From: Octopus vulgaris
Taxonomy: Eukaryota
Length of the DNA stretch: 64,000 nt
Assembly: GCA_951406725.2 (NCBI GenBank)
Contig: OX597820.1
Location: forward strand, 94,488,001 to 94,552,000
Direction of reading: 5' to 3'
The translations under genes were made by a program, and so were the position numbers. The notes under the pieces were generated by a model. It made no database searches, had not been told where the DNA came from, and saw only the letters and a list, made by a program, of their open reading frames with translations. Of the stretch, positions 39,009-64,000 are shown piece by piece; within the stretch, counting starts at the first letter, position 1, and each line of letters opens with the position of its first letter.

Positions 39009-39039
<31 letters not shown>

Positions 39040-40062: not shown

Positions 40063-40495
40063 TAGGCGCAGGAGTGTCTGTGTGGTAAGTAGCTTGTTTA
40101 CCAACCACATGGTTCCGGGTTCAGTCCCACTGCGTGGCACCTTGGGCAAGTGTCTTCTACTATAGCCTCGGGCCGACCAAAGCCTTGTGAGTGGATTTGG
40201 TAAACGGAAACTGAAAGACACTCATCGTATATATGTATATATATATGTGTGTGTCTGTGTGTTTGTGTGTTTGTGTGTCTGTGTTTGTCCCCTAGCATTG
40301 CTTGACAACCGATGCTGGTGTGTTTGTGTCCCCGTTACTTAGCAGTTCGGCAAAAGAGACCGATAGAATAAGTACTGGGCTTACAAAGAATAAGTCCCGG
40401 GGTCGATTTGCTCGACTAAAGGCGGTGCTCCAGCATGGCCGCAGTCAAATGACTGAAACAAGTAAAAGAGTAAAAGAGTAAAGAGTAAAGAGTAA
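40063..40495 (+). mobile_element. SINE family B, full length; mirror about 44614-45037
   Basis: Complete head, internal microsatellite and (gtaaaaga)n tail. Confidence 0.9.
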
Positions 40496-41829
40496 ATACA
40501 TATGCATACATATATTCCTACACACATATATATGCATACATACATGAATGAATGTATGTATGTATAATACAATGTTCCACATAAACACTGAACAGTTTGC
40601 TTAGCACCAAATATAAACTAAACACGGATATTCGAAACTAAAGGATATCTAAATATATGTTAATATAAAATGACACTTAAATACAACTGTTCAAATGAAT
40701 AAATATTTATTGTTGTTTTCCCCATGGTATTTTTGAGCTTAGCAAGTCAAGGAGTGCTTACTTCTCACACCTCACACGTATGTATTCCGTCATTTGCAAT
40801 AAGTTTCAATTTCGTGTATAGATTTAACATCGATAAACACAGATTGCAATTGCTATTATCGCTTGATTTTTATTTGTGAGAAGAGAGCCTGGCTTATTGG
40901 ATTAAATTTTGATAAAGCAATTCAAAATATATGTAGTGATTGAATCGTCTCCTATACCTACTCTAAAACCTTGTAATATTGTGTTACTGCTCCTTATATC
41001 ATACTATGTTATTGTTGGAATTTCTATTGAAAACTAGTTTAGTTTGTTGCAGCATTTAGATGGTTTTTATATAATATATCGAGAAGTTTTCGCATTTTCT
41101 ATCACCTATTTGAAACGTTTCGCCAAACTTTGGGGGGTAACTTTAACAGAGTCCACCCTGTTGTAATCATTCAGAACTGGTCTCTGGCATAAAGAGCTCT
41201 CTTCCTTTCTTTACACCAGTCTCAGGAGTCTTGAAAACAATCTTGGCAATTGTACTTCTTCAGGAGACTAAACCAAAATAAAAGAAAACTTCAGAAAAAG
41301 TTTGTGATGGAGCGAGGAAGAGGGGAATTCTGACATTTAGAAACTTTAGAAAATATGAATTTTCTGTTTAATTCCGAAATGGAATCGGCAGCTTATATTT
41401 GCTGCCGATAAATTTGGCGCGAGTACGATGATTTGAAAATTTTTAGGTTAGATATAGTCGAGGCAGTAGTGGTGCTGCCTCGTGAAAATATCTCTCCCGT
41501 CTGGCCTACTTTACTGATGAATCTGTTGGCTTATGGAAGATTAGCTTGATTTAATTTAATCAGGCTGATTTACCATTAAAAAATAGATGAAACGATGCAT
41601 TGTATAAAGTATAACAGGGTAAATGTTTTTTAAAATTTTCTCCTGGTTTACGGAATTAATACTTTTTTGCGGTTGAAGCCTTGGCTGCTATTTCTAGTGG
41701 GTTGAACGGCCTATTATGGCCGTTCCTTAATTTTGCTGTTGAATTTATTAATAGTCTCTGACTATTTCCTTTTTCCCACTAGACCGCCGGTGGCAAATAA
41801 TTTCTGAATTTTTTGCTACCCTATATTGA

Positions 41830-41888
<59 letters not shown>

Positions 41889-42142
41889 CAATGTATATAT
41901 ATGTATATTATACACATATATACGTACATATGTTTCATTACTGAAAATCCTTCTCTTATTCCTTTAGTAACATAATTTTCTTGCGACACATTGTGACGTA
42001 GCTAAGCAAGAAACATTAATAAATAAATAAAACCAGTCATATATTAATCCTACGAAAACAAACGGCTTTCTGAATCACGATAACTGATATTAATTGAAAC
42101 AGCATGTTAGAACCTATTTCTTATAAGCAAAGACTCAAGCAA

Positions 42143-42470
42143 AGCTCAGTGGTTAGAGCAGCGGGCTCACAATCAAGAAGTAGTGAGTTCGAATCTCGTC
42201 TGGGCTGTGAGTTGTGTTCTTGACACTTTTTTTCACGTTGCACCAGTTCACTGAGCTGTAGAAATGAGTTGCGACGTCACAGGTGTCAAGCTGTATCGGC
42301 CTTTGCCTTTCCCTTGGATAACATCGGTGGCGTGGAGAGGGTAGGCAGGTATGCATGGGCGACTGTTGGTCTTTCATAAACAATCTTGCTTGGACTTGTG
42401 CCTCGGATGGTGGTGGTGGGAACTTTCTAAGTGCACACCCATGGTCATCTATGACCGAAGGGGATCTTTA
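42143..42470 (+). mobile_element. tRNA-derived CORE-like SINE (family D) in the spacer
   Basis: A box agctcagtggttagagc, B box gagttcgaatctc, ttgtgttcttga..cacttt core, 3' hairpin ggtcatctatgacc, then (TATC)n. Confidence 0.8.
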
Positions 42471-42473
42471 TGC

Positions 42474-42523
<50 letters not shown>

Positions 42524-45500
42524 ATAAAATGCCAAAGTGCTCAATACGCATTTGTAGCAAGTCATCTACCTTGTCCAGTCGCGACCCTTTAAACTAAAGG
42601 CGAATATCTATTTGATAAACGTAAACCGACTTGAAGCCAGAAGGCGATGTTTCAGCATAATCGCAGTCCAAAACTGAAACAAGTAAAAATATGTATAAGT
42701 GCACAATACAGAAGATTGGATAAGGAAATAGTTGAGGTAAGGTAGAGAAAAGGCAGTGCATTAAAGAGAGATTTAAAGAAAAGAGCAAGGAATTTTAGGG
42801 AACCAATTTAGAAATACATTAAAGAAAGATCTAGGCATACATCATTTCGAATTAGAAGGAAAATCCTTCATTGCTACTAAATGCACCTTATTCTTATAAT
42901 CGTGGTACCAAGTATAGAGATTAATAGCTTCACATAAGATCTGGGGTGTAAGTCGATACAACTGACCAAAAATTGGTCCACAGGAAAATTTGAAGTATAG
43001 AGATGCTGGATCATGTATTTGAAGAATCCCCAGGTGCTATTTCAAGCATCAAAGAGGTTTTACCAGGTTCGGTCATGCTGTTTTGATTATATACTGCACA
43101 TAGCAATATAGTTATTGTTTAACACCAGATCAGCCATAATCAAACAGCCCTCTGTTCAAAGACATTCAAATCATGACTATTCCATCTTTCGTTTCTGTAT
43201 CTTGAAATAAATCATCTAATGAGTGTTCTTCGATTTTTAAGACGGTTGTGTGATGTGGGCAAAATTTGTTCGTTATTTTTAGCAGATGTTGAAGAATAAC
43301 GTACAGCTGTTACTGTTCAGATCCAAGTTAGCCCAGATTGATCAAAAGTCATTCCAGCTATGACCATCCATCATTTCAAAGATTATTATATCTAGAACTA
43401 CATCATTATTCAATGTGTCCTTTGTTAAAACGTTTGGGCAAGGGTCAGAAACATCAGTTTCCTTACTGCTCATTGCAATATTCTCCTTTTCACTTACCGA
43501 ACACTTTGAACTCTGCTGTGTTTAAATTCACACTTATGTGCATGTGTATATGCGTACATATGGTCGAACATATATGAAAACATTTACTTGATCATTTTAA
43601 CTATCTACCTTTTTCATTGTCTCCCACTGTTTTTGCTTTGCCTTTCTTACTAATTTATTTTTAGCGACAACCCACCTCCTACTGATAATATTATTCCTTT
43701 TCATTGTCTATTAATAGTCATCCATCAATATTTATTAACCTTTCTAAAATTCATATTTTCTAAAGTTTCTAAATGTCAGAATTCCCCTCTTCCTCGCTCC
43801 ATCACAAACTTTTTCTGAAGTTTTCTTTTATTTTGGTTTAGTCTCCTGAAGAAGTACAATTGCCAAGATTGTTTTCAAGACTCCTGAGACTGGTGTAAAG
43901 AAAGGAAGAGAGCTCTTTATGCCAGAGACCAGTTCTGAATGATTACAACAGGGTGGACTCTGTTAAAGTTACCCCCCAAAGTTTGGCGAAACGTTTCAAA
44001 TAGGTGATAGAAAATGCGAAAACTTCTCGATATATTATATAAAAACCATCTAAATGCTGCAACAAACTAAACTAGTTTTCAATAGAAATTCCAACAATAA
44101 CATAGTATGATATAAGGAGCAGTAACACAATATTACAAGGTTTTAGAGTAGGTATAGGAGACGATTCAATCACTACATATATTTTGAATTGCTTTATCAA
44201 AATTTAATCCAATAAGCCAGGCTCTCTTCTCACAAATAAAAATCAAGCGATAATAGCAATTGCAATCTGTGTTTATCGATGTTAAATCTATACACGAAAT
44301 TGAAACTTATTGCAAATGACGGAATACATACGTGTGAGGTGTGAGAAGTAAGCACTCCTTGACTTGCTAAGCTCAAAAATACCATGGGGAAAACAACAAT
44401 AAATATTTATTCATTTGAACAGTTGTATTTAAGTGTCATTTTATATTAACATATATTTAGATATCCTTTAGTTTCGAATATCCGTGTTTAGTTTATATTT
44501 GGTGCTAAGCAAACTGTTCAGTGTTTATGTGGAACATTGTATTATACATACATACATTCATTCATGTATGTATGCATATATATGTGTGTAGGAATATATG
44601 TATGCATATGTATTTACTCTTTACTCTTTACTCTTTTACTCTTTTACTTGTTTCAGTCATTTGACTGCGGCCATGCTGGAGCACCGCCTTTAGTCGTGCA
44701 AATTGACCCCGGGACTTATTCTTTGTAAGCCCAGTACTTATTCTATCGGTCTCTTTTGCCGAACTGCTAAGTAACGGGGACACAAACACACCAGCATCGG
44801 TTGTCAAGCAATGCTAGGGGAAAAACACAGACACACAAGCACACAGACACACACATATATATATACATATATACGATGAGTGTCTTTCAGTTTCCGTTTA
44901 CCAAATCCACTCACAAGGCTTTGGTCGGCCCGAGGCTATAGTAGAAGACACTTGCCCAAGGTGCCACGCAGTGGGACTGAACCCGGAACCATGTGGTTGG
45001 TAAACAAGCTACTTACCACGCAGACACTCCTGCGCCTATTTGAGTATGTATATGCGTGTTTTTATGTATAGTGATACATAAAGAGATCCAAAACATTAAC
45101 TGGAAAATTACTCAAAGTGCATATTATGCTTTTCGTTTCATATATTCAGGGCGTTCGGGTTAGCATAAAATACAAATTGACTATTTGTTTATTTTTTGTT
45201 TTATTTTATTTTATATTAAACTCATTTATTCTTTTATTCTTTTACTTGTTTCAGTCATTTGACTGCGACCATGCTGGAGCACCGCCTTTAGTCGAACAAA
45301 TCAATCCCAGGACTTATTCTTTGTAAATCTAGTACTTATTTTATCAGTGTCTTTTACTGAATCGCTAAATTTCGGGGACGTAAACACACTTTTCGTCTAC
45401 CAAATCCACTTACAAGCCTTTGGTCAGCCCGAGGTTGACACTTGCCCAAGGTGCCACGCAGTAGGACTGAACCCGAAACCATGCAGTTGGGAAACAAGTT

Positions 45501-46410
45501 TCTTATCACACAGCCTGCGCCTTAATAAATTTTTGGGTTACAGGAGAGTCTTGTCCACATACGCGAAATACATCACTGTCAGATATGTCTTCGGATGTCA
45601 GGTATGTCTTCGGATAGAGAAGTAATCGACACTATCCTCAGAGAATACCAATTATGTACAGGAGTACGCATAAACTAGGACAAGTTGGTGGGTTTGCAAT
45701 TACGCAAGTTCATGTTGACCAGTAGCGATTTCCGTTGCTGGGCCGAGGTTCCGGTGAAGGTACTCGGAGTCTGGTCCTGACCAGACCTCTAGGTGGATAG
45801 GAACTTGGATGCGGCTACAAGTAGGGTGGCTAGTCTCATTTAGAGATTGGCTGCGAGGAAACTGTATCTGAAGGCTGAGCTGAAGCAGTGAATGCGTATA
45901 TTGCTTCGGTGGTGTACTTCCGTTTGACAGTCGTAGCTTGTCCCAATAAAACTCGAACCAGATTAGAACACTTACTTTTCCGATTCTTATGGAAGAGTCA
46001 AGTTGCAATAGTCATAAAATCAAGCTGTCGTCAGTACTCACTCTGTGGTGGTCTCGGGTTTCTGTTCTTGATGACGTGCCGGCTGTGCTGAGGTTGATGC
46101 ACCTGTAGAAATATCTAGATTACGACGCTGAAAACGAGGGCAAACTAGTATGCATTTCTTTTGTGCAAGATGTCTTTCTGTTGCTCGCCACATTGGTTGA
46201 GCTTCAATCATGGGCCAAGCGTAGACCAAGACTGAGCATTTTGCATCTAGAATGATGTTTGGTTCGCGACAACCTGTTCGGGACAACCTCTTCAGGCATG
46301 GAAGCGCCAGATGCTGAGTGTATCTGAGATGTATGTAGGATGACAAAACCGTCCTTCACTAAATCGCTCAATTGCATTAGCGATTTGTGAAGATGACGGT
46401 AGAGAGGTGC

Positions 46411-46448
<38 letters not shown>

Positions 46449-49444
46449 CAGAAGCAGCAGCAGCAATAGAAGCAGTAGCAGTAAGGCTAGGAGCTAGTAG
46501 ATTCGTTCGCACGCCTTACCGGCTTAGCAGTGTTTCTTCCTTTCTTATATCCAGAATTCAAATTCCGCTCAGGTCAACCTTGTTTTTCCTCCTTTCGAGG
46601 TCGATAAATTAAGTACCAGTCAAGTTCTGGAATCGATGTAATTGACTTAACCCCTTCCCAAAATTTCTGGTTTTGTGCCAAAATTTAAAACCATTTACTA
46701 TTATTATTACTAATTTTAGATATTCAATAATTTCAACTAAACTTTTACTGCATCACCTGCTCAACAACTTGAAGTATATGCATTTTGGGGTGTTCTTGGT
46801 TTTGTTGGAGTTAGGGAAGAACAGACTCTTTCCAGCACATTATTGCATCAATTTGATTTTTTATGGGGTTTGGCTTGAATCTTTTGTTGCATTAGTATTT
46901 GTATTTTGTGTTTCGTGAGTAATGCGAGTTATGTCCTGTTTGGTATCCGACTTGAAGAGTACATGTTTGCTTTATTGGGCATTTACTTTATAGAGAGTGT
47001 CTAGTGCTCATGGATTGTCTTGTTTGGGTTGCACTATTGACTTGATAGTGTCATGCGTAGGATGTTTGCTGTTCCTAACAGTATTATTCCTTTTGATAGC
47101 GTCCAGTGTTGAAGGTCCAGGTATGGTGTCTACGTTTTTGATATGTTTTTATCATACCAGATGCTCTAACTATTACTGGTATTGTTTTTGACTTAATGCT
47201 CCAAATATTGAATACTTCAGTTTCGAAATCTTTGTACATTGACAGTTTCTCCACTTCTTTTTGAGAAAATATTATTATTATTATTATTCTATGTTTGACT
47301 TTTGCTTTATATTTGTACAAGTTGGCTCCAAGTCTCACCCAGAGACCTCAAGAGACAACAGGGTTGGAAGTTCATGTTGTTGTTATGCCTAGTGTGCCAT
47401 ATAATTTGGGGGGGGGGGGTTGTACTAATGAATGTCTAAAAAAAGGTCTCTTTCGGCAAATTATAAAACTTGGCACTTGGTTGTTAATTTATCATTGAAG
47501 ACACTCAAGCATCAATCTCAATAGCTGTCCCCAATAGAATAGGTTTTGGGCCTGCTCTACCCTCATGTCAATTCCAATTTCTCCGACATATTTCTCGAAT
47601 CTGGTTGTTAGTGCTCCGAGGGCCCCTAGAACTACTGGAATAACGGTTACTTTCCTCATTGCTCACATTTTTGTATTTTCCTTTTTTTTAGTAATTTGTA
47701 TTTCTCTACCTTTTTCAACTCTTTCTCAACTACGCGTGCATCCTCATGTATGGCAATATCTATGATCTTAGTTTCCTTTTTCCTTTTATCTACCACAACA
47801 ATTTCTGGTTTCCGAGCATCAGCTAGGGAATCACATTGAACTAAAAATTCCACAAGATCTTATACTTATTGTTCTCAGTGACACCCTCCAGTTCATGTTC
47901 GTACCATTTCCATGCTCTTCCTAGGCCATACTTTTCACACAGTCTTCAGTGAACAAACTTAGCCAGTTATCGTGCAGCCTTTTGAAGTGAATCTGTGCCA
48001 GTTTGCTACCTTAACTCTCAAAGTGTGATTGTTTCGTTTTTACTGCCACACATCCTACAAGGGGGCGATTAACTGTTGTTATTTATTAGGAACTTGGTGT
48101 TATTAGTTCTCAGAGCTTGTTCCTGGGTGTTGCATATCAATATCTCAGTTCATCCTTTCAGATCACTTTTCCTTATCCATCTTCATGTGTTAGTCTTGTC
48201 TTAATCTTAGATTTCTCTGAGGTAATGTCTCTACATTCATTTCCAGTTGTTCTTTCTTCCTCATCTAGTTTCTTAAATAATTTTCAGCGCGTCACATTTT
48301 TGGTAGTTATCATGTTGCTATTTCTAGCTGCGGCAAGCAAGGATTTACTCTGCTGTTTGATGCACCGCCCCAGACTGTTCTCGTTGACAACCTAGATCTT
48401 GCACCCTATGAGGCTTCTTCTTCCCTTCTTTCTAGGCACATTAAATCTATCGATATCACATTAAATCTATCGATATCCTTGTTCATTGTCATCACTCTTC
48501 AAGCTCATACTTCCCATAATTAATTTGGTTCTTAGATATTCTCGCCTAAAGCTTTCCTTTATTTCACTCTCCATTCTCCTTCCATTCTCCATTCTCCTAT
48601 GCAAATCGCAAACAACAATGACGGTAGTCTCTCCCTGAAATATGCCACTTTTAAAGTTAACCTTCACTAAAATTTGTCCACATAAGTCTGTATTCCAGTT
48701 ATTCATTAATCACCTAATGAAATAAATATAAGAAATAATTGATAATTGGAGCATTGGGCATGATAAAAAAACCTACGAAGAAAAACGTTGAAGCTATATC
48801 TGGACTCTCAATACTACACATTGTACAAAATAGAGCACTGCTAGGAACAGCCTGCATCCTACGCAAGACACTATCAATTCGATTACACAACCTAAACAAA
48901 ACAATTCACAAACACAAGACACAGCAAATATCCAATGAAATAAACTGCAACCGATAGGCAATTTAACCAACGCACTACACGCACAACATACAATACAGAC
49001 ATTAATGCAACAAAAGATTGCACTACATCCCATAACAAAGGAACTGACGCAATACAATACTGTGAAGAGTTTGCACACTCCGAACAACAACAACAACAAT
49101 AACAAAATAGAACATACAATGCTGCACAGCCCAGCATCACAGAAGTGTAGCAGGTGATGCAGTATAATTTGCTTGAAACTACCAAATGTTGAACGATGAT
49201 AATAATAGTAATGGTTTCAAATTTTGGCACAAGGCCAGCAAGTTCGGTGGAGGGGGAAAGTCGATTACATCGATCCCATGGTTTAACTGGTACCTATATC
49301 ATGGACCATGAAAGAATGAAGGGCAAGGTAGACCTCGGCGGAATTTGGACTCTAGACGGACGAAATGCAGCTAATCATTTTGCATGGCATACTAACGATT
49401 GTAGCAGCTCGCTGCATTAATAACAATGATGATGATGATGATGC

Positions 49445-49478
<34 letters not shown>

Positions 49479-49926
49479 ACTAATAATAATAATAATAATA
49501 ATGTGTTCCCACTGATAAACTAAGAGATGTAAGTGTTTGGCAACTAAGTTAACGTAAGAACTTGGAAATTGAAATACGAAAGAAGCGGCATCTTAAAGCG
49601 AGAACTGTTCCTGTTATTGTAGGTGCCCTAGGTATGATACAAAAGGGATGTCAGAAACATCTAGATAAGATCTCAGAAGAACCATGTCTCAGAGAAATCC
49701 ATAAGTTTGTACTGACAAGTACTGTCCACATCCTTAGAAAAACCCTACGCATTTAAATGTCTCTGTTGCATTACCTGAATATGTTTCACTACTTCACCGC
49801 CCCACCAAGCTTTCAGTCATACTGTAACATGTAACATCTCTTATCTTTTACTCGCCCCATATTCTTCTTCTTCTTCTTCTTCTTCTTCTTCTTCTTCTTC
49901 TTCTTCTTCTTCTTCTTCTTCTTCTT

Positions 49927-50065
<139 letters not shown>

Positions 50066-50299
50066 TTGTTGTTGTTATTAAAATTGGCGAGCTGGCAGAA
50101 CAGCACGGTGGGAAAATGCTGAACGGCATTTCGTCCGTCCTTACGGTCTGAGTTCAAATTCTGTTGAGGTCAACTTTGCCTCTCGGGGTTGATAAATTAA
50201 GTATCTGTTACGTATTGGGGTCGATCTAATCGACTGCCCCTTCCCCTAAAATTTCAGGCTTTGTGCTTATAGTAGAAAGTATTATTATTATTATTATTA

Positions 50300-50365
<66 letters not shown>

Positions 50366-50661
50366 TATGTTTGACTTTTGCTTTATATTTGTACAAGTTG
50401 GCTCCAAGTCTCACCCAGAGACCTCAAGAGACAACAGGTTGGAAGTTCATGTTGTTGTTATGCCTAGTGTGCCATATATTTGGGGGGGGGGAGTTTTTGG
50501 TGTTGTTCTAATGAATGTCTAAAAAAAAAATTTTTTTTAAACCGAAAATTATGTTTGTTTTAAACATTGAGATTACATAGAAAGTATTTTGCGCAGGATA
50601 TGAGGAGTTCCCATGAGCACTAATATTATTATTATAGTAGTAGTAGTAGTAGTAGGAGGAG

Positions 50662-50787
<126 letters not shown>

Positions 50788-51135
50788 AAACATTATTTAT
50801 TTGTTTGTTTATAACTAATTCTGTATCCCCCGGAAAGTATTTCCTACAGAAGAACTTATGTAACCAATAGCAATAATCTTAGTTATATCAACACATACAT
50901 ACATACATACATACATACATACATACATACATACATACATAACATACATACATACATACATACATACATAACATACATACATACATATATTTATATATAT
51001 AGGGAGAGAGAGAGAAGGAAAAAGAGAGATCGTGTTACCAGTTTAGCATATACATGTATCTATATATGTACGTACATACATATATGTTTTTTTTTTTTTC
51101 TCTCCTTCTTTCTGTGTTTTTTTTCTCTCTGTGTA

Positions 51136-51173
51136 TCTTTCTGTTGAAGAGCGTAGGCTCGAAACGTTAAAGA
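51136..51173 (+). ncRNA. Minimal type-I hammerhead ribozyme-like motif in a ~190-bp element present only in the right arm
   Basis: tcttt-CTGTTGA-a-GAGC-gtag-GCTC-GAAAC-GTT-aaaga: 5-bp stem I, 4-bp stem II, core differs from CUGANGA at position 6. Confidence 0.65.
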
Positions 51174-52402
51174 CTTGTTTTATTTATATTTCCTGAGCGC
51201 CATACTAATACAATTGTTTGTTTGTTTTCCACCTGCCTTCGTCTTTTGTCTATTTTCATAAAGCTTCCCGTTACATAAATACATGCATACATACATCATG
51301 TATCCTTATCTGCTCACCTGAATTTCTCTCATAGCCACCCATTACTTCGTGGACTCCGTCCCTGATAAAAATTTCGGAGTGTAAATTCAAATCATTTGAG
51401 TGCTAAGTATTTTCCATATTGAGAATGTATGTACGTATGCATGTATGCATGTATGTATGTCTGTCTCTTCTATTTCTGAATTATCATAAATCTTCCATTG
51501 GGGAGGTCGCCGGTTTCCAACAAAGATACATGACTCCATCTTTGGGATGTAGTTAACACAGATAAATTCACATTTGTAACTTGAGAAAAGTTTGCATATT
51601 TTTACTCTTCCAGTCACAGGTTGCACTTGTAATGTACGAATTAGCCGGTCGATTTCTCTTTCTGAAAATCCCTGTTTATTCAGATTCTCCTAGTGCTCCA
51701 ATTATTATTGGTATGATTATGAATATAGAGCTAGATGATATATATGTCCATATATATCTTCTTTTCTTTTGATTTTCAGAGAGATATTTATATCTGCAGG
51801 GCAGCTGACCTCTATGACGGTACATACCTTTGCCCCTTTATCCCAAACAACAATATCTGACCTGTTAATGTTTACATTTGACAGAAGTTTTGATGGGAAT
51901 ATTCCACCAGTTTTCCTTAAGTTGTTGTTTGTGAATGTATTCCATAACAGGGATTTTCTAAGTTTATTTCAGGACAGTCTTTTTTGCGGATGGCATTGTA
52001 AATTGTTTTAGCAACAACATCGTGCTGCATAGGGAGGTAGTATCGTGATGACATTTTAGGACAGCTGCTAATCACATGCGTGATGTCTTCCACAGAAACA
52101 TGACATAGCTTACACATACAGTTGATCTTTGGGATTACAAGAGCGTCACTATCTCTCATGTTCACCAGATACTTTGTGGCAATATCCTGTTCCTGGATTG
52201 CAAACGCATAGCCTTCAAAGTGTGATGTGATGTTGAGGAGAGGACTGAACAACAACCTTCTGGCATTCTCCTTGTTAAGGAACTGCTTCGCTATGCCGAA
52301 GCGCCATTACACCCTCCATAGTGTCCCTTGTTCCAGCCACGCCTACCTTCTCCCAGGTTTTGTTATATATGTTTGAATGTATGTGTGCGTATATATGTTT
52401 GC

Positions 52403-52435
<33 letters not shown>

Positions 52436-54494
52436 TGTGTGTGCTTGTGTGTGTGTGTGCTTGTGTGTGTGTGCTTGTGTGTGTGTGTGCTTGTGTGTGT
52501 GTGTGCTTGTGTGTGTGTGTGAGTGTATGTGTGTATATATTGTTGTATCTAGGAAGAGTCATTATGCTAATACTATTAACACACTCACTGGTTCAATTCC
52601 ACTAGTTCAATTTATTATTAGTCAATTGGTTGCATATCCAACAAACCAATCGATTGTTTGATTGATTTGGTTAAACATTGATACATTGGTTTTGTTTTTG
52701 TTTGTCAAAGTTCTTTCGTTGCCGATTGGAACCCTTTCAATATCTTTCTTCTTAGTCCATTACAGATGCTGTGCTTCTCTGCCTGAGACTTTGGGGTCAA
52801 ACTATACACAAGCATAGGGTGACCCAAAATTAAGGCAACCAATTTTTTTTTCAATTTTGTCAAAGTAAAATATTGTTGTATTTCGCATCTAGCATTGCAG
52901 TACAATCATAAAGGAAACACAATTATGACAATACCACATTTATTCGATATGATCACCTCTGTTTCGAATCACGGCCTTAAATCGAAGTGCAAATGGTTCA
53001 CATATGGTAAGCAGCTGTTCTTGCAGAATCGAAATCCATTCCTAGCGCAGTGTCGAGCATGAACCAGACAGAAAAATCCAACGGATTGAGATCGGGGCTT
53101 TTTGAGGGCCATACATCCTTGCCTATGAACGACGGAATATTGTTGTGTCTGTTTGAAGCTGTGGGATGGTGCCGAGTCCTATTGGAGGCGCCAAGGTGCG
53201 TCTTGAAAGTGTACATTCACCCATGGAAGCTGTTCAGCTTCCAGAATATCCCCAATGAATCGCTAGTTGGTAATTTTAACCCACGATGGCACAAAAAACG
53301 AAGGAAGACCTTTTAGTGGCTGTCACAGTCGCCCAAACCATAACTAACTTGATGTTGACGTCGATTTACGAGCCAGATAGATACACTCCAAAGTTCGACG
53401 GAACCAGATACACTCCAAAGTGTGAATTTATATAGTCTGAAACACAAAGAAAACACACGAAGCTTTTATAATGATGTATAATTTTCATATCGTATCATAT
53501 TTAAAGATAGCTATTGAAGCCTGAAACTTCTGTTGCCTTAATTTCGGAACACTGTATATTCTGCCCCTACCACATCTGAACGGGGAAGATCACCAATCAT
53601 CATCCAGTACATAGCTAGCTCCATTCACCAAAGTATCAAGGTAACTATAGATTGAACTATCTTGGAAATGGATGCGTGGCGCTTAATCATATAATAATAT
53701 AAATAACATATATATGCATATATACATACATGTACATACTTACATATATATGTATATACACATGCATAAGCCGTAAAAAAAAACGTAAACAACATGAGAT
53801 AGAATATGAAAAACAAAAACATGGAAAACGAAAGAAACAAATAGAAAAACAAGACAGGCAACATAAAGAACAATCCCTTCATCAGTTGTTCACTGCTTTT
53901 TCTACTTCGCATTCCGAGCATTAGGACAAGATGCGTCTTCGTCAAAACAGTTGCTCCCGCAAAGCAAATTTAATAAAATTTGGGATTTGCGGAGGGTCAA
54001 AATTGGTAACAAAAGCAGGACAGTGAAAACAAACGGTAAGGGCTGTTAAGCCATAATGAGGTAAAGTGATGAACGTTGGAGAAACAAGCTTTGACAGGTG
54101 ACAGACAAAAATTCATGCTATCCCTGTAGCTGAACGAGAAGAAAGAAAGAAATTCGAGTTAGGAGAAGAAAGATGGCCGCTGGTCACGCGTGAGCAACGA
54201 TAGAGTCAAGGAGGAAGAGTGAGGGAGAGACAGGGGTAGATAGAGAAAGGTGAAGGAGGAGGAGAAGAATTAGAGAAAGGATGAGAGAGAAAAAAGGAAA
54301 GATAAAAAGAATATAGAAAGAGGAAGAGCGAGAGAAATAGAGATAGTGATAGAATAATGTTGCATCAGGATTATTAAGATAAAACTTACTTGGAAATAGA
54401 TGCGTGGCGTTCACTCATATAATATAGATAATATACATATATGCGTACCCTAACAACAGACTCTCATACCTTAATACTGATCCTTGGTTAGCGA

Positions 54495-55450
54495 CTGAAA
54501 AACAGCTAAGCACAGCTCCTCCACCCATAGCTTCAAAATATATTGTTCACAAGAACTCAACCTTGTCACACAATATGAAAATTAGTATACTAATCGTAGA
54601 CTTAGGATAAAGAATAATTTGTTCCCCCTATGCGAACCTTATGTAACAAAGAGACATGTACAGAACTTCATGCACAACATGCAATTCTCTGAATACAACC
54701 AGAAAGATGGGATTCGAATATACAGGGGAGTCAGTTAAGAAATTAGATATATGTAATGATACCAGTGGTACCTGTCGTAGATACCGAAATAAAGACTGGA
54801 ATAGTATACCGAGGATTTGTGACGAAGCAAACAGATTGAACATATTGTAAAAGGCTGATAAGTACAAAGTGTGATGTCTATAGAGGCTACACCTCATGGA
54901 GAATTAGCCCGTAGATTTAGGAAGGTTATGAAGGACACCAAATTCAACATTAAATCACTCAGAAACTAGGGAGCTGCATCAGATCATATTTATGTAGGGC
55001 GTACACCTTCGAGAATACCACATGCACTAATGAAAATTGTGCAGTATGTAACCTTAACCCCAGTATTAACTATAAAACTAGGAACGTGGTCTACAACATA
55101 GGGTGCATGGAAAGAGTTTGTAAGGACAGAAACACGGCATACATTGCGGAGACTTCTAGGAGTATAGCGGAGAGACTAAACATGCATTGGAGAGAGTATA
55201 ACGACAAGACACTGTCATTCATACTCTATCAACATGACAAAGACCAACACGGCGGCAACCTGGGCCGAATTGAAGTCCAGAATTGAATTCCGAATTGAAG
55301 TCCAGACACCCAAAGGACCAATCACTTATACAATTACAAGAATACGTCCTCATAAATGATGCATTACCTATACTTAACAGGAAATACACGTAGAAGGTAG
55401 GGATACCCCAATGCCACAGATATCACCCATACAGCGTAAATGCATAGGTA
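54495..55450 (+). mobile_element. Penelope-like element 3' fragment (GIY-YIG), right arm only
   Basis: VVYNIGC..C...YIAETSRSIAERLNMH; upstream LNIL*KADKY-like segment. Confidence 0.75.
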
Positions 55451-55599
55451 CATTCGTAAGTAGGCAGTCAAGTTGGTAATTAGTTTGGTTGGTAGTTAGG
55501 TAGGTAGGTAAGTAGGTAGGTAGGTAGGTGTAGGTAGGTGGGTAGGTAAGTAGGTTGGTGGGTAGCATGCACACACATCACGCAACAATATCTCAAGCA

Positions 55600-57530
55600 G
55601 AGAAAGGCCGCCTCCGTAACGGACTAAGAAAGTTATTGAAAAGTTTGAAAGTAGCAACGAAAAATCTTTGACAAACAAAAACAAATCAAGTTCCACAGTT
55701 TGTTTCACACTATCTGGGGACCATACTTAGGAGCAGTATTCCAAGCGGCTGAGAACGAAAGTCTTCCATAGGTGTAGCAGGGCCTTCCTTTTCCTGGTTC
55801 TGAATGTCCTCAGAGTCCAGCCAGTCAGCCACTCGCCTGCACAGTGTTGCCATCTTGGTAATATGCACATAGAATGTTGCATAATTGCTCATGTGAAGCC
55901 GCACCGACTCTGACTCTGGGATCGTATTACCTTCTGGCCCAGTGTATTCCGGTATTGGACCGATAGTGGAGTGCCTGAAATTTCATAGCATTGAATTGCA
56001 TACTATATTTGTTAGCCCATTTGTAGATTTCATTCAGGTATTTTTGAAGTTTTATGATGTCTTCTGGGTTCCTTATTACTTGCGATACTTTTGTGTCGTC
56101 AGCATAACCGGTCAGATTGGCTGATTGTACGGTGGAGAGTATGTCTGAGAGGGCTACCGTCAATAGTAGTGTCCCCAGTACAGTTCTCTGTGGGACTAAG
56201 CTGCAAATTGGCTACAACTGTCTGACTCCTGACTACAACTGTCTGACTCCTGCTCTTCAGAAAGTCATGAAGTCACTCTCCCAGTTTCTCGGCAATACCA
56301 AGGATTCGCAGCTTGTGACATATCATCCCATGATCAACCTGGTCGAAGACCTTGGTAAAGTCGAGGTATATCACGTCTAGAGCTAACTGGTTTAGCTATT
56401 GCTTCAGTATCCAGTCAAAGTGCTGCAGCAACTGTGTGAAACAGCTCCTCCCTGGACGGAAGCCATGTTACGTGTTTGTGAGAAGGTTGTTTTCTTCTAG
56501 GAATGTGATCAGCCTTTTTCTAACAATACGTTCCATTGTCTCGCTAACATGTGAGGACAAAGAGATGGGACTGTAGTTTTTAGCATCTGCTCTGCTCCCT
56601 ACCTCATGGACAGGACATATTAAACCCTCTTTGTTCATGTTGGGAAGTTTACCATATGCAAGGAAACTCTGAAAGAGTATCTGCAGTAGCTTTGCAAGAG
56701 CCTTTTTACATGTCTTTAAGAGAACAGACGGGAGTCCATCTGGGCCTGTTGCTGAGTTTGATCTCATCTCATCAATGGCCGATATTACATACTCTTGTGT
56801 TATGTCGATGTAATCAATGGTTGCCTCTTTTCCGAATATATTCATTACATAGAAAACTCCTTCGGCTTGTTTATTTGCATATTTTCCAGTGGAGGAGTGA
56901 AAACACTTCGGAATTGTTTATTTAGTGCTTAACTCATTCTCTGGGTCTGCGGTTAGTGAACCGTTCTTAGCAAATTGTGGTCCTAACTTATATCGTGCTG
57001 AGTCAGACTACTTTGACAACGTGTAGAAGACTTTAGGATTTCTTTTTATATTTTCGAATGTCCAGATATGTCTTTCTTCTCTTTCTTTTTCATGGGAAAT
57101 TTTGAGTTCATTTTCTATATCGAGGAGTTCCTCTGTCAAGTGAGATTTCACACGGTTATTAAGGTGTTTGTTTAAATGATTCGAGATCGTTATTCTCCGC
57201 CGCAGGTGTATTCTCCTGTTTCGGGGAATGATGTTTTTGTGTGTATTGGTTCCCCTCTCAGGGACATATTTAATGCGTATGACTCGCATAATTGACATTA
57301 ATTTATTGAGTTTCACATCTATGTCATGCATAGAGATGCTTTTAGTCCAGTCTTGCTGGAGTATTTGTTTTTCAACTTACTTCCAGTCAGCCTTATAGAA
57401 ATTTAGGCTCGATAGGGTTTGAGCGCCATCTGTGCGGAGTTTATCTTTAGTTAATTCCGGGCCATACATTGTCAGTTCTGTCCAGAGGTCCTGGACATTT
57501 TTGTGCCTGGTTGGACTGAGTATGATCTGC

Positions 57531-57535
<5 letters not shown>
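55600..57535 (-). mobile_element. Decayed CR1/L2/Jockey-group LINE ORF2 fragment, mostly right arm only
   Basis: SLNFYKADWK, NIKRNPKVFY, NSATGPDGLPSVLLK, NYSPISLSSHVSETMERIV, GYADDTKV. Confidence 0.88.
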
Positions 57536-57599
<64 letters not shown>

Positions 57600-58090
57600 A
57601 GCCAACTGGAGATGTTCTCCTGGGGCTACAAGCTACAGTAGCATCCTCTCTTAGTGGTTAGCCACATTTAAATGGCAAATATACTTCACATTGTCGTGTC
57701 GTTCAGAGATTTATTATTGCTTATATATATATATGTTTTGAGAAAAAAGTCGTTAGAATTTTGGAAAAACATCTTGTTCATAATTCTCGAACTTGTCAAA
57801 TAAAATTTATATTTAGAATATAAAATGTCCTGTTACTCCTTCCAAACATTCATTTTTGGAGGGAATTTCTTGATGAAATGTAGTTCTGCATTAAAAAATA
57901 TTAATATAATATTTGCAAATTAACAATTTAAAAAATCAATCAACAAATAAAATATACTAAAAGAATACATACATACATATATATATATAGTTAATCCAAA
58001 CAAGAATTCACAAAAAAAACACACAACAACGCGAGGACGTGGAACAAATATAGTATTATTGGACGCTCAGGAAAGAAGGAAAGAAGGAGG

Positions 58091-58125
58091 GTTTAACGTT
58101 TCGAGCGGAGCTCTTCGTCGGAAAC
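58091..58125 (-). ncRNA. Mirror copy of the hammerhead-like motif
   Basis: Exact reverse complement of 27718-27752. Confidence 0.65.
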
Positions 58126-58528
58126 ATAGGAGAAGGAAAGATCCAGAGAAGGGAAGACAGAGGAAAAAAATTGCCAACGGTACACACGAGGTCACACACA
58201 CACACATATATATATATATGAGAGTCCAAAGTGTACGCATGCCGCTATAGCTATATAAGAAATACAAAAAAAATGGGACAAGAACGCAACCGGCGACAAA
58301 AAGACATCCAGACAGTTAGATGATACAAAAAGGGACAAGAGAAAAACAAAAACGGTTCATTCGGAGTTTTCTTTCGTCAATCGAGTTCCAGATTATCTTT
58401 TCAGTTTCGGCTGGTTATACTCGACGAAACTGCAAAAATAATCTGGAACTCGACTGAGGAATGACTCCTCCTTGTTTTTTCTTGTCTCTTTTTGTATCAT
58501 CTAACTGTCTGGATGCCCCATTTTTGTA

Positions 58529-58583
<55 letters not shown>

Positions 58584-58697
58584 GAATGTATGTATATATA
58601 CGTAAATCTAAAACATCCCAATGCTACACACATATATCTGAACATTTGTAGAGATGTACCACATTTGGTATAAAGTATTCAAATTCTCGACTTTACC

Positions 58698-61600
58698 TTC
58701 AAACATTCAATTTTGGAGAGAATTTTTGATGAAATCTAGTTCCATTGCTTTTCAGTAATGCAGATCGTCCCGTGCACATTTGTAAAAGGGAAAAATGTTT
58801 AACTTTTGGAGGCTGCATATTTCCAGATGCTTACTTAATGGAATCTTGCGTAATTCCTCTTGTCGGATATGTTGCCTGTGGATTCTTGCACGTTGGCAGA
58901 GGGAATTATTTGTTTCACCAATGTAATTTTCTTAGCAGTTTGGGCAGGTAATGCAGTATATGAGGTTTTGCCTTTTGCAGTTCATGTCTGCATTTTGAAA
59001 AGGGATCCGCTTTTGAATTTTATGTAAGAACCCCTTTCCAAGTATTTGAAGTTGTTGATGTTGCGTGTTCCACATCTTCTAACTCCACATTCTTTTACTA
59101 AGAATTCAGATTCATTCTCTGATTTGAATTCTGCCCTTGTGAGGTGTTTTTTAAGATTTTTTGGTTGGCATCTGCTATTCCGTAAGGTGTTTTTTTTCAA
59201 TCAGATTTTTCATTTTGGGTCTTTGTAGGAGTACAGGTAAGTTCGTGGAAGATGGTAATTCCAGGACTATGTGTGTTTATGAACGGAATCGTGTTTTCAT
59301 TAACTTTTTCCTTAGGTATTCGTAGATGTGTGATATTCAGTTCCATCGCTTTTTTAATTCCCTCATTAATTAATCCTAAGGGGTATTTCTGTGTTGTGGG
59401 GAAGCCTTTGATTTCGTTGAGTCGGATTTCACGTATTTTGGGGTCAGTCATTATAGCACAGATGCGTCTATGGCAAGAGTAGAAATTTAAATATTGGTTG
59501 GTGTCGGTGTTTTATAAAATATGTTTGTTGTGACTGTGGAGTTCTGTATTTTTATATGGATATCCTGGAATGGTAGTTCATTGCAAATGGATTCTGTCGT
59601 GAATTTGAAGGATGGGTCAAGTGTGTTCAGTATATTGTTAAATATATTTAGATCTTCATTCGATTTGTCCCAGAAGATGAAGCAATCATCAAGGAAGCGT
59701 TTCCACTTTTTAATATATTTCTTGAACTCCTGATCAAAAGTTTTTTCTACTTCCTCATAAAGTTTTTCTTCCAAGTATCCCATTACTAAGTTTGCATATG
59801 AGATCGTAAACCGCGTACCCATGGCCGTGTCATTTTTTGTCGATATGTTTTATTGTCGAATCTAAAGGTATTTTCCTCTAGTACTAGGTGTGTGGCCTTG
59901 GTGATGAAGTCAGTGTTGAAACGTTCATTTATCCGTTCTCTGTGTTCCTCTACCCGGTATTTGATTGCTTCTAGGCCTAAAGTGTGAGGTATATTAGTAT
60001 AGAGATTGGTGCCATCAAAACGTGTGAGTATAGTACCTTCTGCGACAGTGGAAGGGATGTGTTGGATGAAATCTATACCATCATGTACATAATTGGGTAT
60101 TAAAAGCTACAAAGGTTTTAGGAGTATATCCAAAAAATGACTTAGTTGTTGTGTTGGTGTTTGATTTCCAGCAACTATTGGTCTTAGTTTGAGGTCAGAA
60201 GGCCTTATTATTTTTACGTATTGGTTCTTCTTATTTATGGCACTTTGTATTTCGGAGCTTTTGTGGGTTTTGGGTAATCCGTAGAAATTACTCTCTTTGA
60301 TTACAGAGCTGCATATATAATATTTCTCCTTGTCTGTGAAGGAATCTTGGAATTCATTGATTAGTCTCCTGATTTTATTCATTATTGTTTTTTTCTTTTA
60401 GGATGACTGAGATGTCATTCTTCAGTGTTTGTAAGGCTTCCTTTTCTTCTTCACGAAGGTTTTGTTTGCATCTGTGGGTATTTAGGGGAAATTTTTAAAT
60501 CGTGCCTATATATACGTCTAAATATTTGTCCTTTCCCTTGTAGCGGATGAAGTGGGATTTATTTCTGACTATTATTCATCATTTAAATCTTTATTGCTGA
60601 AGAATTCTATAAGTCGGAGGTGGCGGTTGAAGTGTTCAGTATCAGATTCCAGTTCTATGAGATTAGGTGTAGGTGTCGGGGTAAACTTGAAACCTTTTAA
60701 TAGGAGGATCATCTCATTCTCGTTTGACAAATTTATGATCTTCGGGTCTATATGTTGTGTGTGTGTTCATTTAAATTTTGTGTATTATCGGGTCTGGTGT
60801 GTGATTTTAGTATCTTCTCCATCAAAAAGGAATTGTGTCACCATGTCTCCGTTTTCTGATCTCGGCGTTCTGGTTTCCATGTAAGTGGGAGGATGGTTCA
60901 TATCTTTTATATGAATTCCGCTGGTTATAAGTTTTGTTTTCTTCCCTTCCTCCATGCTCTTTTCGCCATTCAGGATATATGGGATTTTTGGTCGTAAATC
61001 GTGGGTTGCTTGAGTTATCATGATGATTATTATTCCTATTATAGTACCCGTGCTGTCTGTATTTTATTTGTCTCTCTTCCTATGTATTCATCCATCTAGG
61101 GTACATGTTATTTTCGGTTGGTGGTTGTCTGTATGATATTTGCCTATCATGCCCTTTTTCTTTTTATTTATCCATCTATGGTGTGTTGATTTATGGGTTG
61201 ATGGTCGTCTTCTATATTTCATGTGTTGGTTATTTGCAGTGTTATGCATTGAAGAATATATATTTCTTTATTACCCACACGGGGCTAAACATAGAGAGGA
61301 CAATCAAGGACGGACAAAGGAATTAAGTCGATTGCACCGTCCCCAGTGCGTAACTGGTACTTAATTTATCGACCCCGAAAGGATGAAAGGTAAAGCCGAC
61401 CACGGCGGAATTTGAACTCAGAACGTAACGGCAGACGAAATACGGCAACGCATTTCGCCCGGCGTGCTAACGTTTCTGCCAGCTCGCCGCATTGTAGAAT
61501 ATAGGTTTCTAGTCTGTACTTGGGGTGAGACATGGGTCATTTCCGCGTATGTTCTTGGGTAATTAGAGGTTCGTTACCTCAGTTCGGTTCTTCTGGTGTT

Positions 61601-61792
61601 AGTGTCTAAGTTTGTTTTCGATTTCTTCGTATTTCTTCGTGTTGTTGTGGTTTCGTTTTCATTATGCATTTGTCTCCATGGTTTTCTTCATAGTTAGTGA
61701 CTCACTCTTGTTGTTTTTCCTACATTTTTATGGATTTTTCTTCTTCCCGCTTTGTGGCTTCTTTCCATAGTTTTTGCAGTTTTCATGACATT
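58698..61792 (-). mobile_element. Mirror copy of the Penelope-like element, interrupted by a SINE
   Basis: ORFs 60107-60382, 59487-59822, 59197-59451 and 58982-59200 mirror the left-arm frames. Confidence 0.93.
61261..61490 (-). mobile_element. Young SINE family A insertion with 15-bp TSD, right arm only
   Basis: Flanked by gcattgaagaatata (61246-61260) and gcattgtagaatata (61489-61503); the left arm has a single empty site near 24583-24597. Confidence 0.92.
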
Positions 61793-64000
61793 GATTGTCA
61801 CTCCGCTCAGCAATTTCAGCAAACACACACAACGGGAGAAAGCACCCAGTACACACGCCAGAATCGTGTTGCAAAAGGTGAGACAAACTCCAAAGCGCTT
61901 GTGACAGGTAAAAAGTGTAATCTGTATCAGCTGCAAAATGTTCAAAGTTCGAGCAAAGACCATGCAGGGATGCGAGGACTTTTGAGGCATGACTAAGACG
62001 AGGCAAACTATTACACTGGTGCCAAGAAAAATTGTGATAAAATGAATTAGTATACCCGATGGTGTTAGGAAGGGAATGAATCCATGGAAAAAACTTTGTA
62101 CAGAAACGCAGTAGCAAGGTGTGTTCCTTAAAACATTATGAGGATTAAGATAGCATACTCTTGCTAATATGAAATCTCAAAATATTCTAATGATTCCTAC
62201 AACACATAATGTACTATTTGGAACCGGATATTCGCACAGTGACATCTGTGAAGAAAGAACTTGCAGGAAAATGAAAAAAATGTTCGTTCTCTCACAACAT
62301 TAAAGTTATCCATTCAAACGAGCTCTATTTCTCTGTACTCTGTCTCACGTCGCTACCTCTCATTCTTCCTGACCTTGTACGGAATTATTTTAAGCAATAC
62401 CAAACAATTAGTATCAACGTATGTTGCTATATATTAATACCTAGCTGAAAATTACTTTATTAGGGAAAACTACATGGAACAGTAAATTACGTACATTACA
62501 CACGTTGTCTTTAATAATATCTATTATTTACATTGACATCATGTCTCTGAAAGGAAGAAAAACTGCACTCTGTAAACACTGTCTATCCTTTGGTATTAAG
62601 AATGGCGTTTACGAATGCAAGCATTTCTATTTCTAGTACAGGAGCATGGCAGCAAGGTGTGTTCTCACACTCATTGGATATTAGTGAACAGTTTAAATAT
62701 TTCTCATGAATCTAGCGTCGCACAATGTGTGGGAAGTAGTCATTCATTCAATGATATTTAAAAAAAAAAGAAAGAAAGAAAATCCTGCAGCAATTTGAGA
62801 AAATATTTCTTGTGTCTTGAGTCTGATGGGCTGTGATATTTAAAGCAATTCTCAATTTCATTACGAACTATTATGCTAATACGAAAATATTTGTTTTAAA
62901 ATGTAAATATTATGAAATATTGCCAACCAATAGGTATTGATGTCATGTCTTCCATATAATCCAAATTAAGTAATTACAAATCTAATAATATTTATTCTAT
63001 ATTAAATAACTATAATATATTGCGTGTGTATTTTTTGCGATGTTTAAGATAAGGTAAATAACCTTAAAAAACCTATGTCCTTGCCATTGAAATAGTGCTG
63101 GTAGGATCACTAATTCATTAAAAAGATTTTTATTGGAAACCAGATATTTTCTCATCTCGAGATGAAAGGAAAGCATGCCATTGAAGATGTTATTAGAGCA
63201 AGCATTAAAGGATATATTGTATATTCATAATATCTATTATGAAAAATGACTTTGCAATCCGATATACTTTCTATAATAATATGTATTTTATATATTTCTA
63301 GGCGTAACCAGTACTAATGGAGTTCAAAACGGTAAATAATGCTTATATATAATTATGTTAATATTCAAAGATTCTTATAATTATAATATTCATCGTTTTA
63401 TTCATAGTTCTTAGGGCTAACAACCTGGCAGAATCTTTAACAGGTCTATCAAATTCTTAAGCAGGTCGTCATCTCTCCCCCTTCGGTATGCGTTGAAATG
63501 CTGCCGAGATTATCATTGCATTACCTCCTGTCGTAGACGTTAAAATATCTGAGTTCATGTAAACGATGGAGTAGATCCCCCACAAAATTGCTGTGACCAT
63601 ATTTGCAGCAATTTATAGTTTCATTACGAACTATTATAAAATACGAAATTATTTATGGTTTAAAATGTAAATATAATGAAATGTTGTCAGGCAATAACTA
63701 TTGATTTATGCTGCTATATATTGATACGTATCTGAAAGTTATTTTAAAGAATGTTATATGTTGCTTTAGGGAAAACATTGATGTATAATTTATTGTAAAT
63801 CAATGATTGAACTTCGGGCTATAGAAGATTACATGCATCACAAACATAGCCTTCAAAAAATATTTATAACTGGCATGGATATACTGTCTTAGTTTCAGAA
63901 GTGGTTAGTATAATAAATAGAATAGAAAGCCGATAATGATAATATATTTACGATAATTAAGCAGAGGGAGAACTGAAAATTGTGGAAGAAGTAAGATTCA

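What the first reader, a model, noticed from the sequence alone, without database searches (positions are those of the whole stretch)
51083..51271. Arm-specific ~190-bp ribozyme-bearing mini-element
Seen: a T-rich non-coding insert in a (TACA)n tract, flanked by tacata on both sides and absent from the mirror site (~31910-31920). It holds tcttt-CTGTTGA-a-GAGC-gtag-GCTC-GAAAC-GTT-aaaga. Against the 27655-27852 element it shares GAGC/GCTC, GAAACGTT and downstream cctgagcg..taatac, but stem I changes compensatorily (gttt/aaac vs cttt/aaag) and loop II differs. Inference: a family of tiny non-autonomous hammerhead retroelements, probably moved by Penelope machinery, targeting microsatellites and active after the palindrome formed. 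This is the best candidate here for an undescribed mobile RNA system.
Basis: partly seen in the sequence, partly recalled or inferred. Interest (0 to 1): 0.8.

Follow-up and report, generated by a model that had tools for sequence, protein, structure and literature searches.

The report
Penelope retroelement tail with minimal hammerhead
This 189-base insert, present in only one arm of a large inverted duplication, carries a known type of small hammerhead RNA motif and is likely the broken-off tail of a very abundant Penelope-like jumping gene of what is likely an octopus, so it is real but of a kind already described.

Summary
51083-51271 is in the right arm only, lies between two TACATA hexamers, and carries a type I minimal hammerhead with an extra base at 9/10.1 and a palindromic ACGU helix III. 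That is the form described in 2014 for Penelope-like element (PLE) pseudo-LTRs. Public contigs suggest tens of thousands of copies in two related species, and only a sister subfamily in a third (rough estimate). The relative at 27650 sits in both arms, in sense, 593 nt behind a decayed Neptune-like PLE ORF. Another animal contig shows the same motif 674 nt behind an RT/GIY-YIG ORF, with short solo tails elsewhere. Best reading (0.62): a 5'-truncated PLE 3' end copied into a TA/TACA tract after the arms diverged. A self-propagating ~190-nt unit is not excluded (0.28) because 5' ends could not be measured, but that too is a described kind. This copy has U at core position 6 and no dimer partner, so it likely cleaves poorly. 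Junctions, polarity, cleavage and a Dfam match are untested. The scan reached similar verdicts earlier in other genomes (unchecked notes). New member of a known kind.

The parts
51083..51271 (+). E1: arm-specific 189-bp insert, likely the 3' end (pseudo-LTR piece) of a Penelope-like element; 86 nt before and 103 nt after the predicted cut
   Evidence: family depth
51136..51173 (+). Type I minimal hammerhead motif: stem I 5 bp, core CUGUUGA (U at position 6), extra A, stem II 4 bp, GAAA, ACGU palindrome, predicted cut after 51168
   Evidence: anatomy as in PMC4209133
51192..51211 (+). Motif CCTGAGCG...TAATAC shared with E2 and with the sister subfamily seen as loose ends; function unknown, possibly an RT-recognition signal (speculation)
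   Evidence: (table 7)
51077..51082 (+). TACATA, left copy of the putative 6-bp target-site duplication
51272..51277 (+). TACATA, right copy of the putative 6-bp target-site duplication
31911..31916 (-). Empty mirror site in the left arm (single TACATA in a degenerate TA/TACA tract)
27650..27852 (+). E2: related element between (TA)n arrays; hammerhead 27718-27752 with core CCGACGA, cut after 27748, 104 nt to the 3' end
57990..58193 (-). Mirror copy of E2 in the right arm (predates the duplication)
25092..27130 (+). Decayed Neptune-like PLE ORF (RT, Cys linker, C-terminal GIY-YIG; many stops and frameshifts); its stop lies 593 nt upstream of the E2 core
58700..60763 (-). Mirror copy of the decayed PLE ORF
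27300..27530 (.). About 230-bp inverted-repeat unit between (TA)n arrays with a decayed hammerhead-like core; likely an independent head-to-head pair of PLE ends (inferred)
   Evidence: similar tail-outward pairs in L041 and L043
27964..28012 (+). Second fragment matching the last 47 nt of the PLE ORF (90%), part of another truncated 3' end just behind E2
22032..64000 (.). Large inverted duplication (centre about 41363-43746; arms 0.6-2% mismatched, several arm-specific indels)

Best explanation
The insert carries a minimal hammerhead motif and is likely the 5'-truncated 3' end (pseudo-LTR piece) of an abundant Neptune-type Penelope-like retroelement, likely copied into a TA/TACA simple repeat after the two arms diverged. 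Shown: the insert, the hexamer on both sides, the motif and its structure, a very large family of similar sequence, and a related copy in sense behind a PLE ORF. Inferred from PLE biology: a GIY-YIG endonuclease nicks AT-rich simple-repeat DNA; the RT starts at a fixed site about 100 nt behind the hammerhead; synthesis aborts after about 190 nt; staggered second-strand cleavage leaves a 6-bp duplication. The hammerhead would need a second copy to form helix III. This lone copy, with U at core position 6, is predicted to cleave poorly or not at all, so it is likely a passenger. In one tested PLE, cleavage was not needed for insertion in vitro (PMC11167929).
For: (1) The anatomy matches the published PLE minimal hammerhead: extra nucleotide at 9/10.1, G10.1-C11.1, palindromic 15.2-16.2, 4-5 bp helix I, and 'most motifs single, probably truncated PLEs' (PMC4209133). 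(2) A metagenome scan with only the stem II/GAAACGTT pattern gave 38 loci. 15 of 38 carry the unqueried CYGAN core upstream. Stem I covaries in a 16-row alignment (score 0.247, 0 of 500 shuffles; best slid control 0.119). (3) L009 holds an RT + CxxC + GIY-YIG ORF with the same motif 674 nt behind the stop and 82 nt before the family 3' end. Its relatives share that 3' end but start 8 nt (L022, L035) or at least 559 nt (L007, contig end) upstream of the motif, i.e. fixed 3' and variable 5' ends. (4) E2 lies in sense 593 nt behind a Neptune-like ORF in the window, next to a second truncated ORF end. (5) E1 and E2 end 103 and 104 nt after the cut. In PAc the RT starts 85-92 nt behind the cut (computed from PMC11167929). 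(6) Neptune/Naiad microsatellite bias and heavy 5' truncation are published (PMC8557442). (7) Summed contig depth of 1.9-3.1 million over 51140-51263, against single contigs of about 50-60x, gives roughly 35,000-59,000 copies in runs X1 and X3.
Against: No autonomous element carrying the E1 tail was seen, since no genome was held. E2 is separated from the ORF by two (TA)n arrays and an inverted-repeat unit, so it may be a nested insertion rather than that element's own end. Neither E1 nor E2 matches the 1.5 kb upstream of the window's PLE ORF, so no 5' pseudo-LTR was found. E1 and E2 have similar 5' lengths (86 and 99 nt), which fits a defined unit (n=2). The read-laying tool skipped 50985-51142 and 51270-51299, so 5' ends and junctions were not measured. 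The family looks about 11-13 times enriched in one run guessed to be RNA, more than expected of dead tails. The tool warns that summed depth is not a copy number.
Confidence: 0.62

Rival explanations
1. A non-autonomous unit of about 190-200 nt (solo-pLTR family or monomeric retrozyme) with its own fixed 5' end is transcribed and copied in trans by Neptune RT/EN, much as SINEs are by LINEs.
For: Similar lengths of E1 and E2 (189 and 203 nt). Very high apparent copy number with subfamily turnover: run X14 has the hammerhead at 1.9 million depth but the E1 3' half at about 1,000, plus a sister subfamily seen as loose ends at 51176. E1/neighbouring-repeat depth ratio is 93 in the RNA-guess run X15 versus 7.4 and 8.9 in DNA runs X1 and X3. 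Dispersed monomers and non-autonomous PLE derivatives exist elsewhere.
Against: The 5' parts of E1 and E2 are not alike beyond chance (175 of 1000 shuffles). There is no tandem copy and no terminal redundancy. The hammerhead is the minimal, dimer-dependent type, not the canonical type of retrozymes (PMC7229834 passages), and the core is non-canonical. In the L009 family, equally short solo tails coexist with the full element. X15 is contigs only and RNA only by guess.
Confidence: 0.28
2. E1 was in both arms and was lost from the left arm by deletion between the two TACATA hexamers, so it shows no activity after the duplication.
For: Microhomology deletions occur in this duplication: 52125-52271, part of an RT-type ORF, is missing from the left arm at a short TTG overlap. 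TACATA is frequent in this tract. The outgroup junction test failed because those bases were skipped.
Against: The 3' boundary coincides with the family end: depth falls from 2.1 million to 38,000 in the bin starting at 51264, partly masked. It also coincides with E2's end (103 versus 104 nt). A random deletion would not do that, and a precise excision between duplicated ends is expected to be rare (own knowledge).
Confidence: 0.06
3. The two arms are two haplotypes mis-joined by the assembly, and E1 is a segregating insertion polymorphism. The element is the same as in the best explanation, but the dating by the palindrome falls away.
For: Arm divergence of 0.6-2% with many presence/absence indels is what two haplotypes could look like.
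Against: There is no N gap at the centre and a unique 2.4-kb spacer. Not testable from contigs.
Confidence: 0.04

Closest known systems
Minimal hammerheads (min-HHR) in pseudo-LTRs of metazoan Penelope-like elements (Cervera and De la Pena 2014, PMC4209133; parts 1-2 of 4 read)
   Same: Type I, no helix III loop, palindromic 15.2-16.2, extra nucleotide at 9/10.1, G10.1-C11.1, 4-5 bp helix I; mostly single dispersed motifs; thousands per genome.
   Different: Helix II is 4 bp here (7-8 bp in the Schistosoma families). E1 has U6 and E2 has C4. The apparent copy number (tens of thousands, rough) exceeds the 2,000-9,000 per genome reported there. No octopus example was seen in the parts read or in the two supplement files searched (a third file was not searchable).
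Neptune-clade endonuclease-bearing PLEs (PMC8557442, passages)
   Same: RT, Cys-rich linker and C-terminal GIY-YIG in the window ORF; microsatellite targets; 5' truncation; inverted and partial-tandem ends.
   Different: No intact parent with the E1 tail seen. The clade was assigned from domain order and linker, not from a tree.
Animal non-LTR retrozymes (PMC7229834, passages; Li, Clavereau and Pollet 2026, bioRxiv 10.64898/2026.07.22.740005, parts 1-3 of 5 read)
   Same: Short, non-coding, type I hammerhead, related to PLE pLTRs; monomers dispersed across chromosomes.
   Different: Defined by tandem repeats of two or more hammerhead units and by circular RNAs. E1 is a lone copy, and tandem forms and circles were not seen or not testable.
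Non-autonomous Chlamys PLEs such as MRC1 (PMC8557442, passage)
   Same: Non-coding PLE derivatives sharing 3' ends with autonomous families.
   Different: Green algal; most Chlamys lack canonical hammerheads; often multicopy head-to-tail.

Membership tests
PLE minimal hammerhead (min-HHR) | Type I topology: helix I - core - helix II - GAAA - NUH - helix I | tested here: met
PLE minimal hammerhead (min-HHR) | Extra nucleotide between 9 and 10.1, and G10.1-C11.1 | tested here: met
   A51148; G51149-C51160
PLE minimal hammerhead (min-HHR) | Palindromic 15.2-16.2 with no helix III loop | tested here: met
   ACGT at 51164-51167
PLE minimal hammerhead (min-HHR) | Canonical core CUGANGA | tested here: not met
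   E1 is CUGUUGA and E2 is CCGACGA. I read this as copy or subfamily decay of a member of the family. Whether U6 is family-wide was not determined.
PLE minimal hammerhead (min-HHR) | Self-cleavage as a dimer | not testable with these tools
   Unconstrained cofolding did not give the catalytic dimer, which is uninformative
3' end of an endonuclease-bearing PLE (Neptune type) | Hammerhead in sense in the terminal repeat behind an RT-GIY-YIG ORF | tested here: inconclusive
   Met for the same motif in L009 and by position for E2 (593 nt, with nested pieces between). Not seen for E1 itself.
3' end of an endonuclease-bearing PLE (Neptune type) | Fixed 3' end, variable 5' truncation | tested here: inconclusive
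   3' ends agree (103 and 104 nt; depth drop). 5' ends were masked.
3' end of an endonuclease-bearing PLE (Neptune type) | Insertion in simple repeats, variable target-site duplication | tested here: met
   2 of 2 independent sites in runs covering 3.2% of the window; 6-bp duplication
3' end of an endonuclease-bearing PLE (Neptune type) | Match to a Dfam/Repbase PLE consensus | not testable with these tools
   No such library is held
Non-LTR retrozyme | Tandem repeat of two or more hammerhead-bearing units | tested here: not met
   Single copy at this locus, no terminal redundancy. Other loci in the genome were not testable.
Non-LTR retrozyme | Monomeric linear and circular RNA | not testable with these tools
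   Only contigs of one RNA-guess run were laid

The most novel reading that the evidence does not exclude
A roughly 190-nt hammerhead-bearing unit with a fixed 5' end has amplified to tens of thousands of dispersed monomers in octopus genomes as a SINE-like parasite of Neptune elements. It turns over by subfamily between species, is abundantly transcribed, and carries a family-wide U6 core. That would mean either a new active core variant, or mobility that no longer needs cleavage.
Probability: 0.2. Interest if true: 0.55.

Novelty: new member of a known kind. Interest (0 to 1): 0.27.

Why it matters
If the best reading holds, this is a useful annotation: probably one of the more abundant short repeats of this genome is a Penelope tail, with an empty/filled site pair that shows recent insertion into a simple repeat. 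It is not a new system. If the novel case holds, a huge, young, transcribed family with a damaged hammerhead core would be a natural test of an open question, namely whether PLE hammerheads matter for transposition or merely ride along (raised in PMC8557442 and PMC11167929).

Tried and rejected
No whole genome is held, so the genome-wide search was impossible.

Rfam: no hammerhead among 52 matches, almost all simple-repeat noise. Monomer folding is not significant (z -1.3 and -1.1), as expected for a minimal motif.

Viral contigs: 0 hits for three patterns and no relative of P0001.

Outgroup polarity and head-to-tail joints: the single read-laying run skipped both junctions, and 89 variant rows, 33 joints and 1,185 loose ends were not shown. 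No listed holder run is on record as RNA.

Translating E1 to read position 6 and upstream sequence from spuriously predicted proteins found nothing.

G001, a MAG holding an animal-like contig, has no E1, E2 or window-SINE match. It has 5 other minimal hammerheads.

A candidate at 43960 and its mirror at 41149 has no stem I and was rejected. The covariance model found no further copies in the window beyond the 3 it was built from; the next best was E=0.57.

One search used a mis-registered structure string and is void; one search replaces it. Alignment A4 holds 13 of the 38 metagenome loci, chosen by me mostly for having the core, so its position-6 conservation is not evidence. Its stem II is fixed by the search pattern; only stem I is a test, and related rows inflate it.

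Reading the T-rich 5' end as a poly(A) tail of a minus-strand SINE was considered and rejected: the hammerhead and the PLE ORF context are on the plus strand.

Literature searches for an octopus description, for A6U and for short non-autonomous PLE families listed none for this family. Subscription papers, Dfam and Repbase were not searched, Lunse et al. 2017 is not held, the supplement of PMC13282606 was listed but not read, and bioRxiv supplements are closed. Any of these may already name it.

Full report
1. Observation. The window holds an inverted duplication from about 22032 to 64000, whose arms differ by 0.6-2% and by several indels. The right arm has 195 bases that the left arm lacks: 51083-51271 (E1) plus one of two flanking TACATA hexamers. 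The left arm has one hexamer at 31911-31916. Flanks differ by 8 of 823 and 1 of 84 bases. E1 contains a type I hammerhead-like fold with the predicted cut after 51168. A structural descriptor finds three such sites in the window: E1, E2 at 27722 and the E2 mirror at 58121. It finds 0.01 per shuffled window in 100 shuffles. Rfam does not detect it. E1 and E2 are related beyond chance (score 60, shuffle maximum 38 of 1000), through the hammerhead and weakly through a downstream motif, but not through their T-rich 5' parts. E2 is in both arms, so it predates the duplication.

2. Host and neighbourhood. The PLE ORF in the window is 82-86% identical to a protein named as Octopus bimaculoides, so the host is likely an octopus (inference). 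That ORF (25092-27130) aligns along residues 19-731 of a 753-aa RT/GIY-YIG protein, broken by stops and frameshifts (Pfam GIY-YIG E=4e-4, below the curated cut-off). It has the Cys-rich linker that PMC8557442 gives for Neptune and Nematis (passages). E2 lies in sense 593 nt behind its stop. Between them are two (TA)n arrays and a ~230-bp inverted-repeat unit with a decayed hammerhead-like core. A second truncated ORF end follows E2. The region is therefore a pile of PLE ends in TA arrays. Whether E2 is that ORF's own end cannot be decided, and no copy of E1 or E2 was found upstream of the ORF.

3. Family size. The window stretch is held by 20 runs under five organism labels. I laid 4 of them. 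Summed contig depth over 51140-51263 is 1.9-3.1 million in X1 (organism A) and X3 (organism B), against about 50-60x for single contigs of the neighbouring repeat. That gives roughly 35,000-59,000 copies. The tool warns that this is not a true copy number, and a factor of two or more is possible. In X14 (organism E) the hammerhead bin is as deep (1.9 million) but the 3' half drops to about 1,000. Loose ends at 51176 in all four runs show a sister subfamily that keeps the hammerhead and the downstream motif. So the family is large and turns over between species. In X15, RNA only by guess, E1 is 93 times deeper than the neighbouring repeat, versus 7.4 and 8.9 times in DNA. This is a weak hint of transcription with no strand, size or ends. 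The tool skipped 50985-51142 and 51270-51299, so neither junction, the 5' ends nor position 6 could be read.

4. Relatives elsewhere. A scan of metagenome contigs with the stem II and GAAACGTT part alone returned 38 loci. 15 of 38 have the unqueried CYGAN core immediately upstream; most of the rest are GC-rich, bacterial-looking chance hits. In an alignment of E1, E2, the E2 mirror and 13 selected loci, stem I covaries (0.247; 0 of 500 shuffles; slid controls at most 0.119, with the caveats under Tried and rejected). L009 holds an RT, CxxC-linker and GIY-YIG ORF with this motif 674 nt behind the stop and 82 nt before the family's 3' end. Its relatives share the 3' end and start 8 nt (L022, L035) or at least 559 nt (L007, contig end) upstream of the motif. 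This is the anatomy of E1 arising by plain 5' truncation. An animal-like contig in G001 holds five other minimal hammerheads, four of them as tail-outward pairs.

5. Mechanism. Shown: insert, duplication, motif, family, PLE context. Inferred: Neptune endonuclease nicks AT-rich simple repeats. E1 and E2 both lie in runs covering 3.2% of the window, and the bias is published. RT starts at a fixed site about 100 nt behind the hammerhead: E1 and E2 end 103 and 104 nt after the cut, and the one PLE studied in vitro initiates 85-92 nt behind it (PMC11167929, parts 1-2 of 4). Early abortion leaves a ~190-bp tail. The ribozyme would need a partner copy, and minimal hammerheads showed no cleavage as monomers and little as dimers (PMC4209133). 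E1 has U at position 6. A6C strongly lowers activity in Mg (PMC3088659 and PMC7151607 passages). My search for A6U in hammerheads listed only a twister paper. E2 has U4C, a known low-activity natural variant also seen in 3 of the 38 loci. So E1 is likely catalytically poor. I give 0.62 to truncated PLE tail, 0.28 to a defined non-autonomous unit, 0.06 to deletion from the left arm and 0.04 to a haplotype mis-join.

6. Comparison with what is known. It works like a PLE pseudo-LTR end and meets the structural tests for the minimal hammerhead, except for the canonical core. It fails the tandem criterion for a retrozyme at this locus. Both leading readings are described kinds: single minimal hammerheads from truncated PLEs (2014) and non-autonomous PLE derivatives with dispersed monomers (2021, 2026 preprint). 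A 2026 O. vulgaris repeat annotation lists 31 recently active Penelope-like families and does not use the word ribozyme in its main text (PMC13282606, part 1 of 3 and passages). My searches listed no paper describing this octopus family, but Dfam, Repbase, closed supplements and subscription papers were not seen. Earlier unchecked notes of this scan reached similar verdicts in other genomes; my reading was stated before seeing them. No look-alike of this sequence is in the scan's index.

7. Verdict. A real, likely recent insertion of a very abundant hammerhead-bearing Penelope end. New member of a known kind, interest 0.27. The open points worth one genome-wide alignment are the 5' end distribution, the U6 core and the apparent RNA enrichment.

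Noticed in passing
L039 / G001 contig C16 (539 kb): A contig in a record titled as a Rhodospirillales MAG is microsatellite-rich, AT-rich, and holds decayed PLE and LINE ORFs and five minimal hammerheads. It looks like animal DNA mis-binned into a bacterial genome.
   Followed up: partly
P0001: A complete 753-aa Neptune-like PLE protein is named as from a bivalve gill symbiont on a 3.2-kb contig; likely host contamination.
   Followed up: no
window 27300-27530 and mirror 58296-58515: A ~230-bp hairpin (76% self-complementary) between TA arrays with a decayed hammerhead-like core; likely a head-to-head pair of ends of another PLE family.
   Followed up: partly
window 22032-64000: An inverted duplication of at least 42 kb with a 2.4-kb spacer and many arm-specific indels (for example 61268-61489, 54493-57424, 52125-52271, 38862-39942). 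It could be a true duplication or joined haplotypes.
   Followed up: partly
window 52125-52271: A 147-bp stretch inside an RT-type ORF (zf-RVT, weak) that is missing from the left arm at a short microhomology; a deletion, not an insertion.
   Followed up: yes
window about 12600-24300: A decayed array of roughly 1.75-kb units (about 60-96% alike), not identified; no convincing Rfam match.
   Followed up: no
window 51480-51900: Another high-copy repeat (summed depth 200,000-450,000 in DNA runs), used here only as a control.
   Followed up: no
window 43960 (+) and 41149 (-): A GGCGAAACGTT-type motif near the palindrome centre without stem I; possibly a decayed hammerhead, not supported by the model.
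   Followed up: partly
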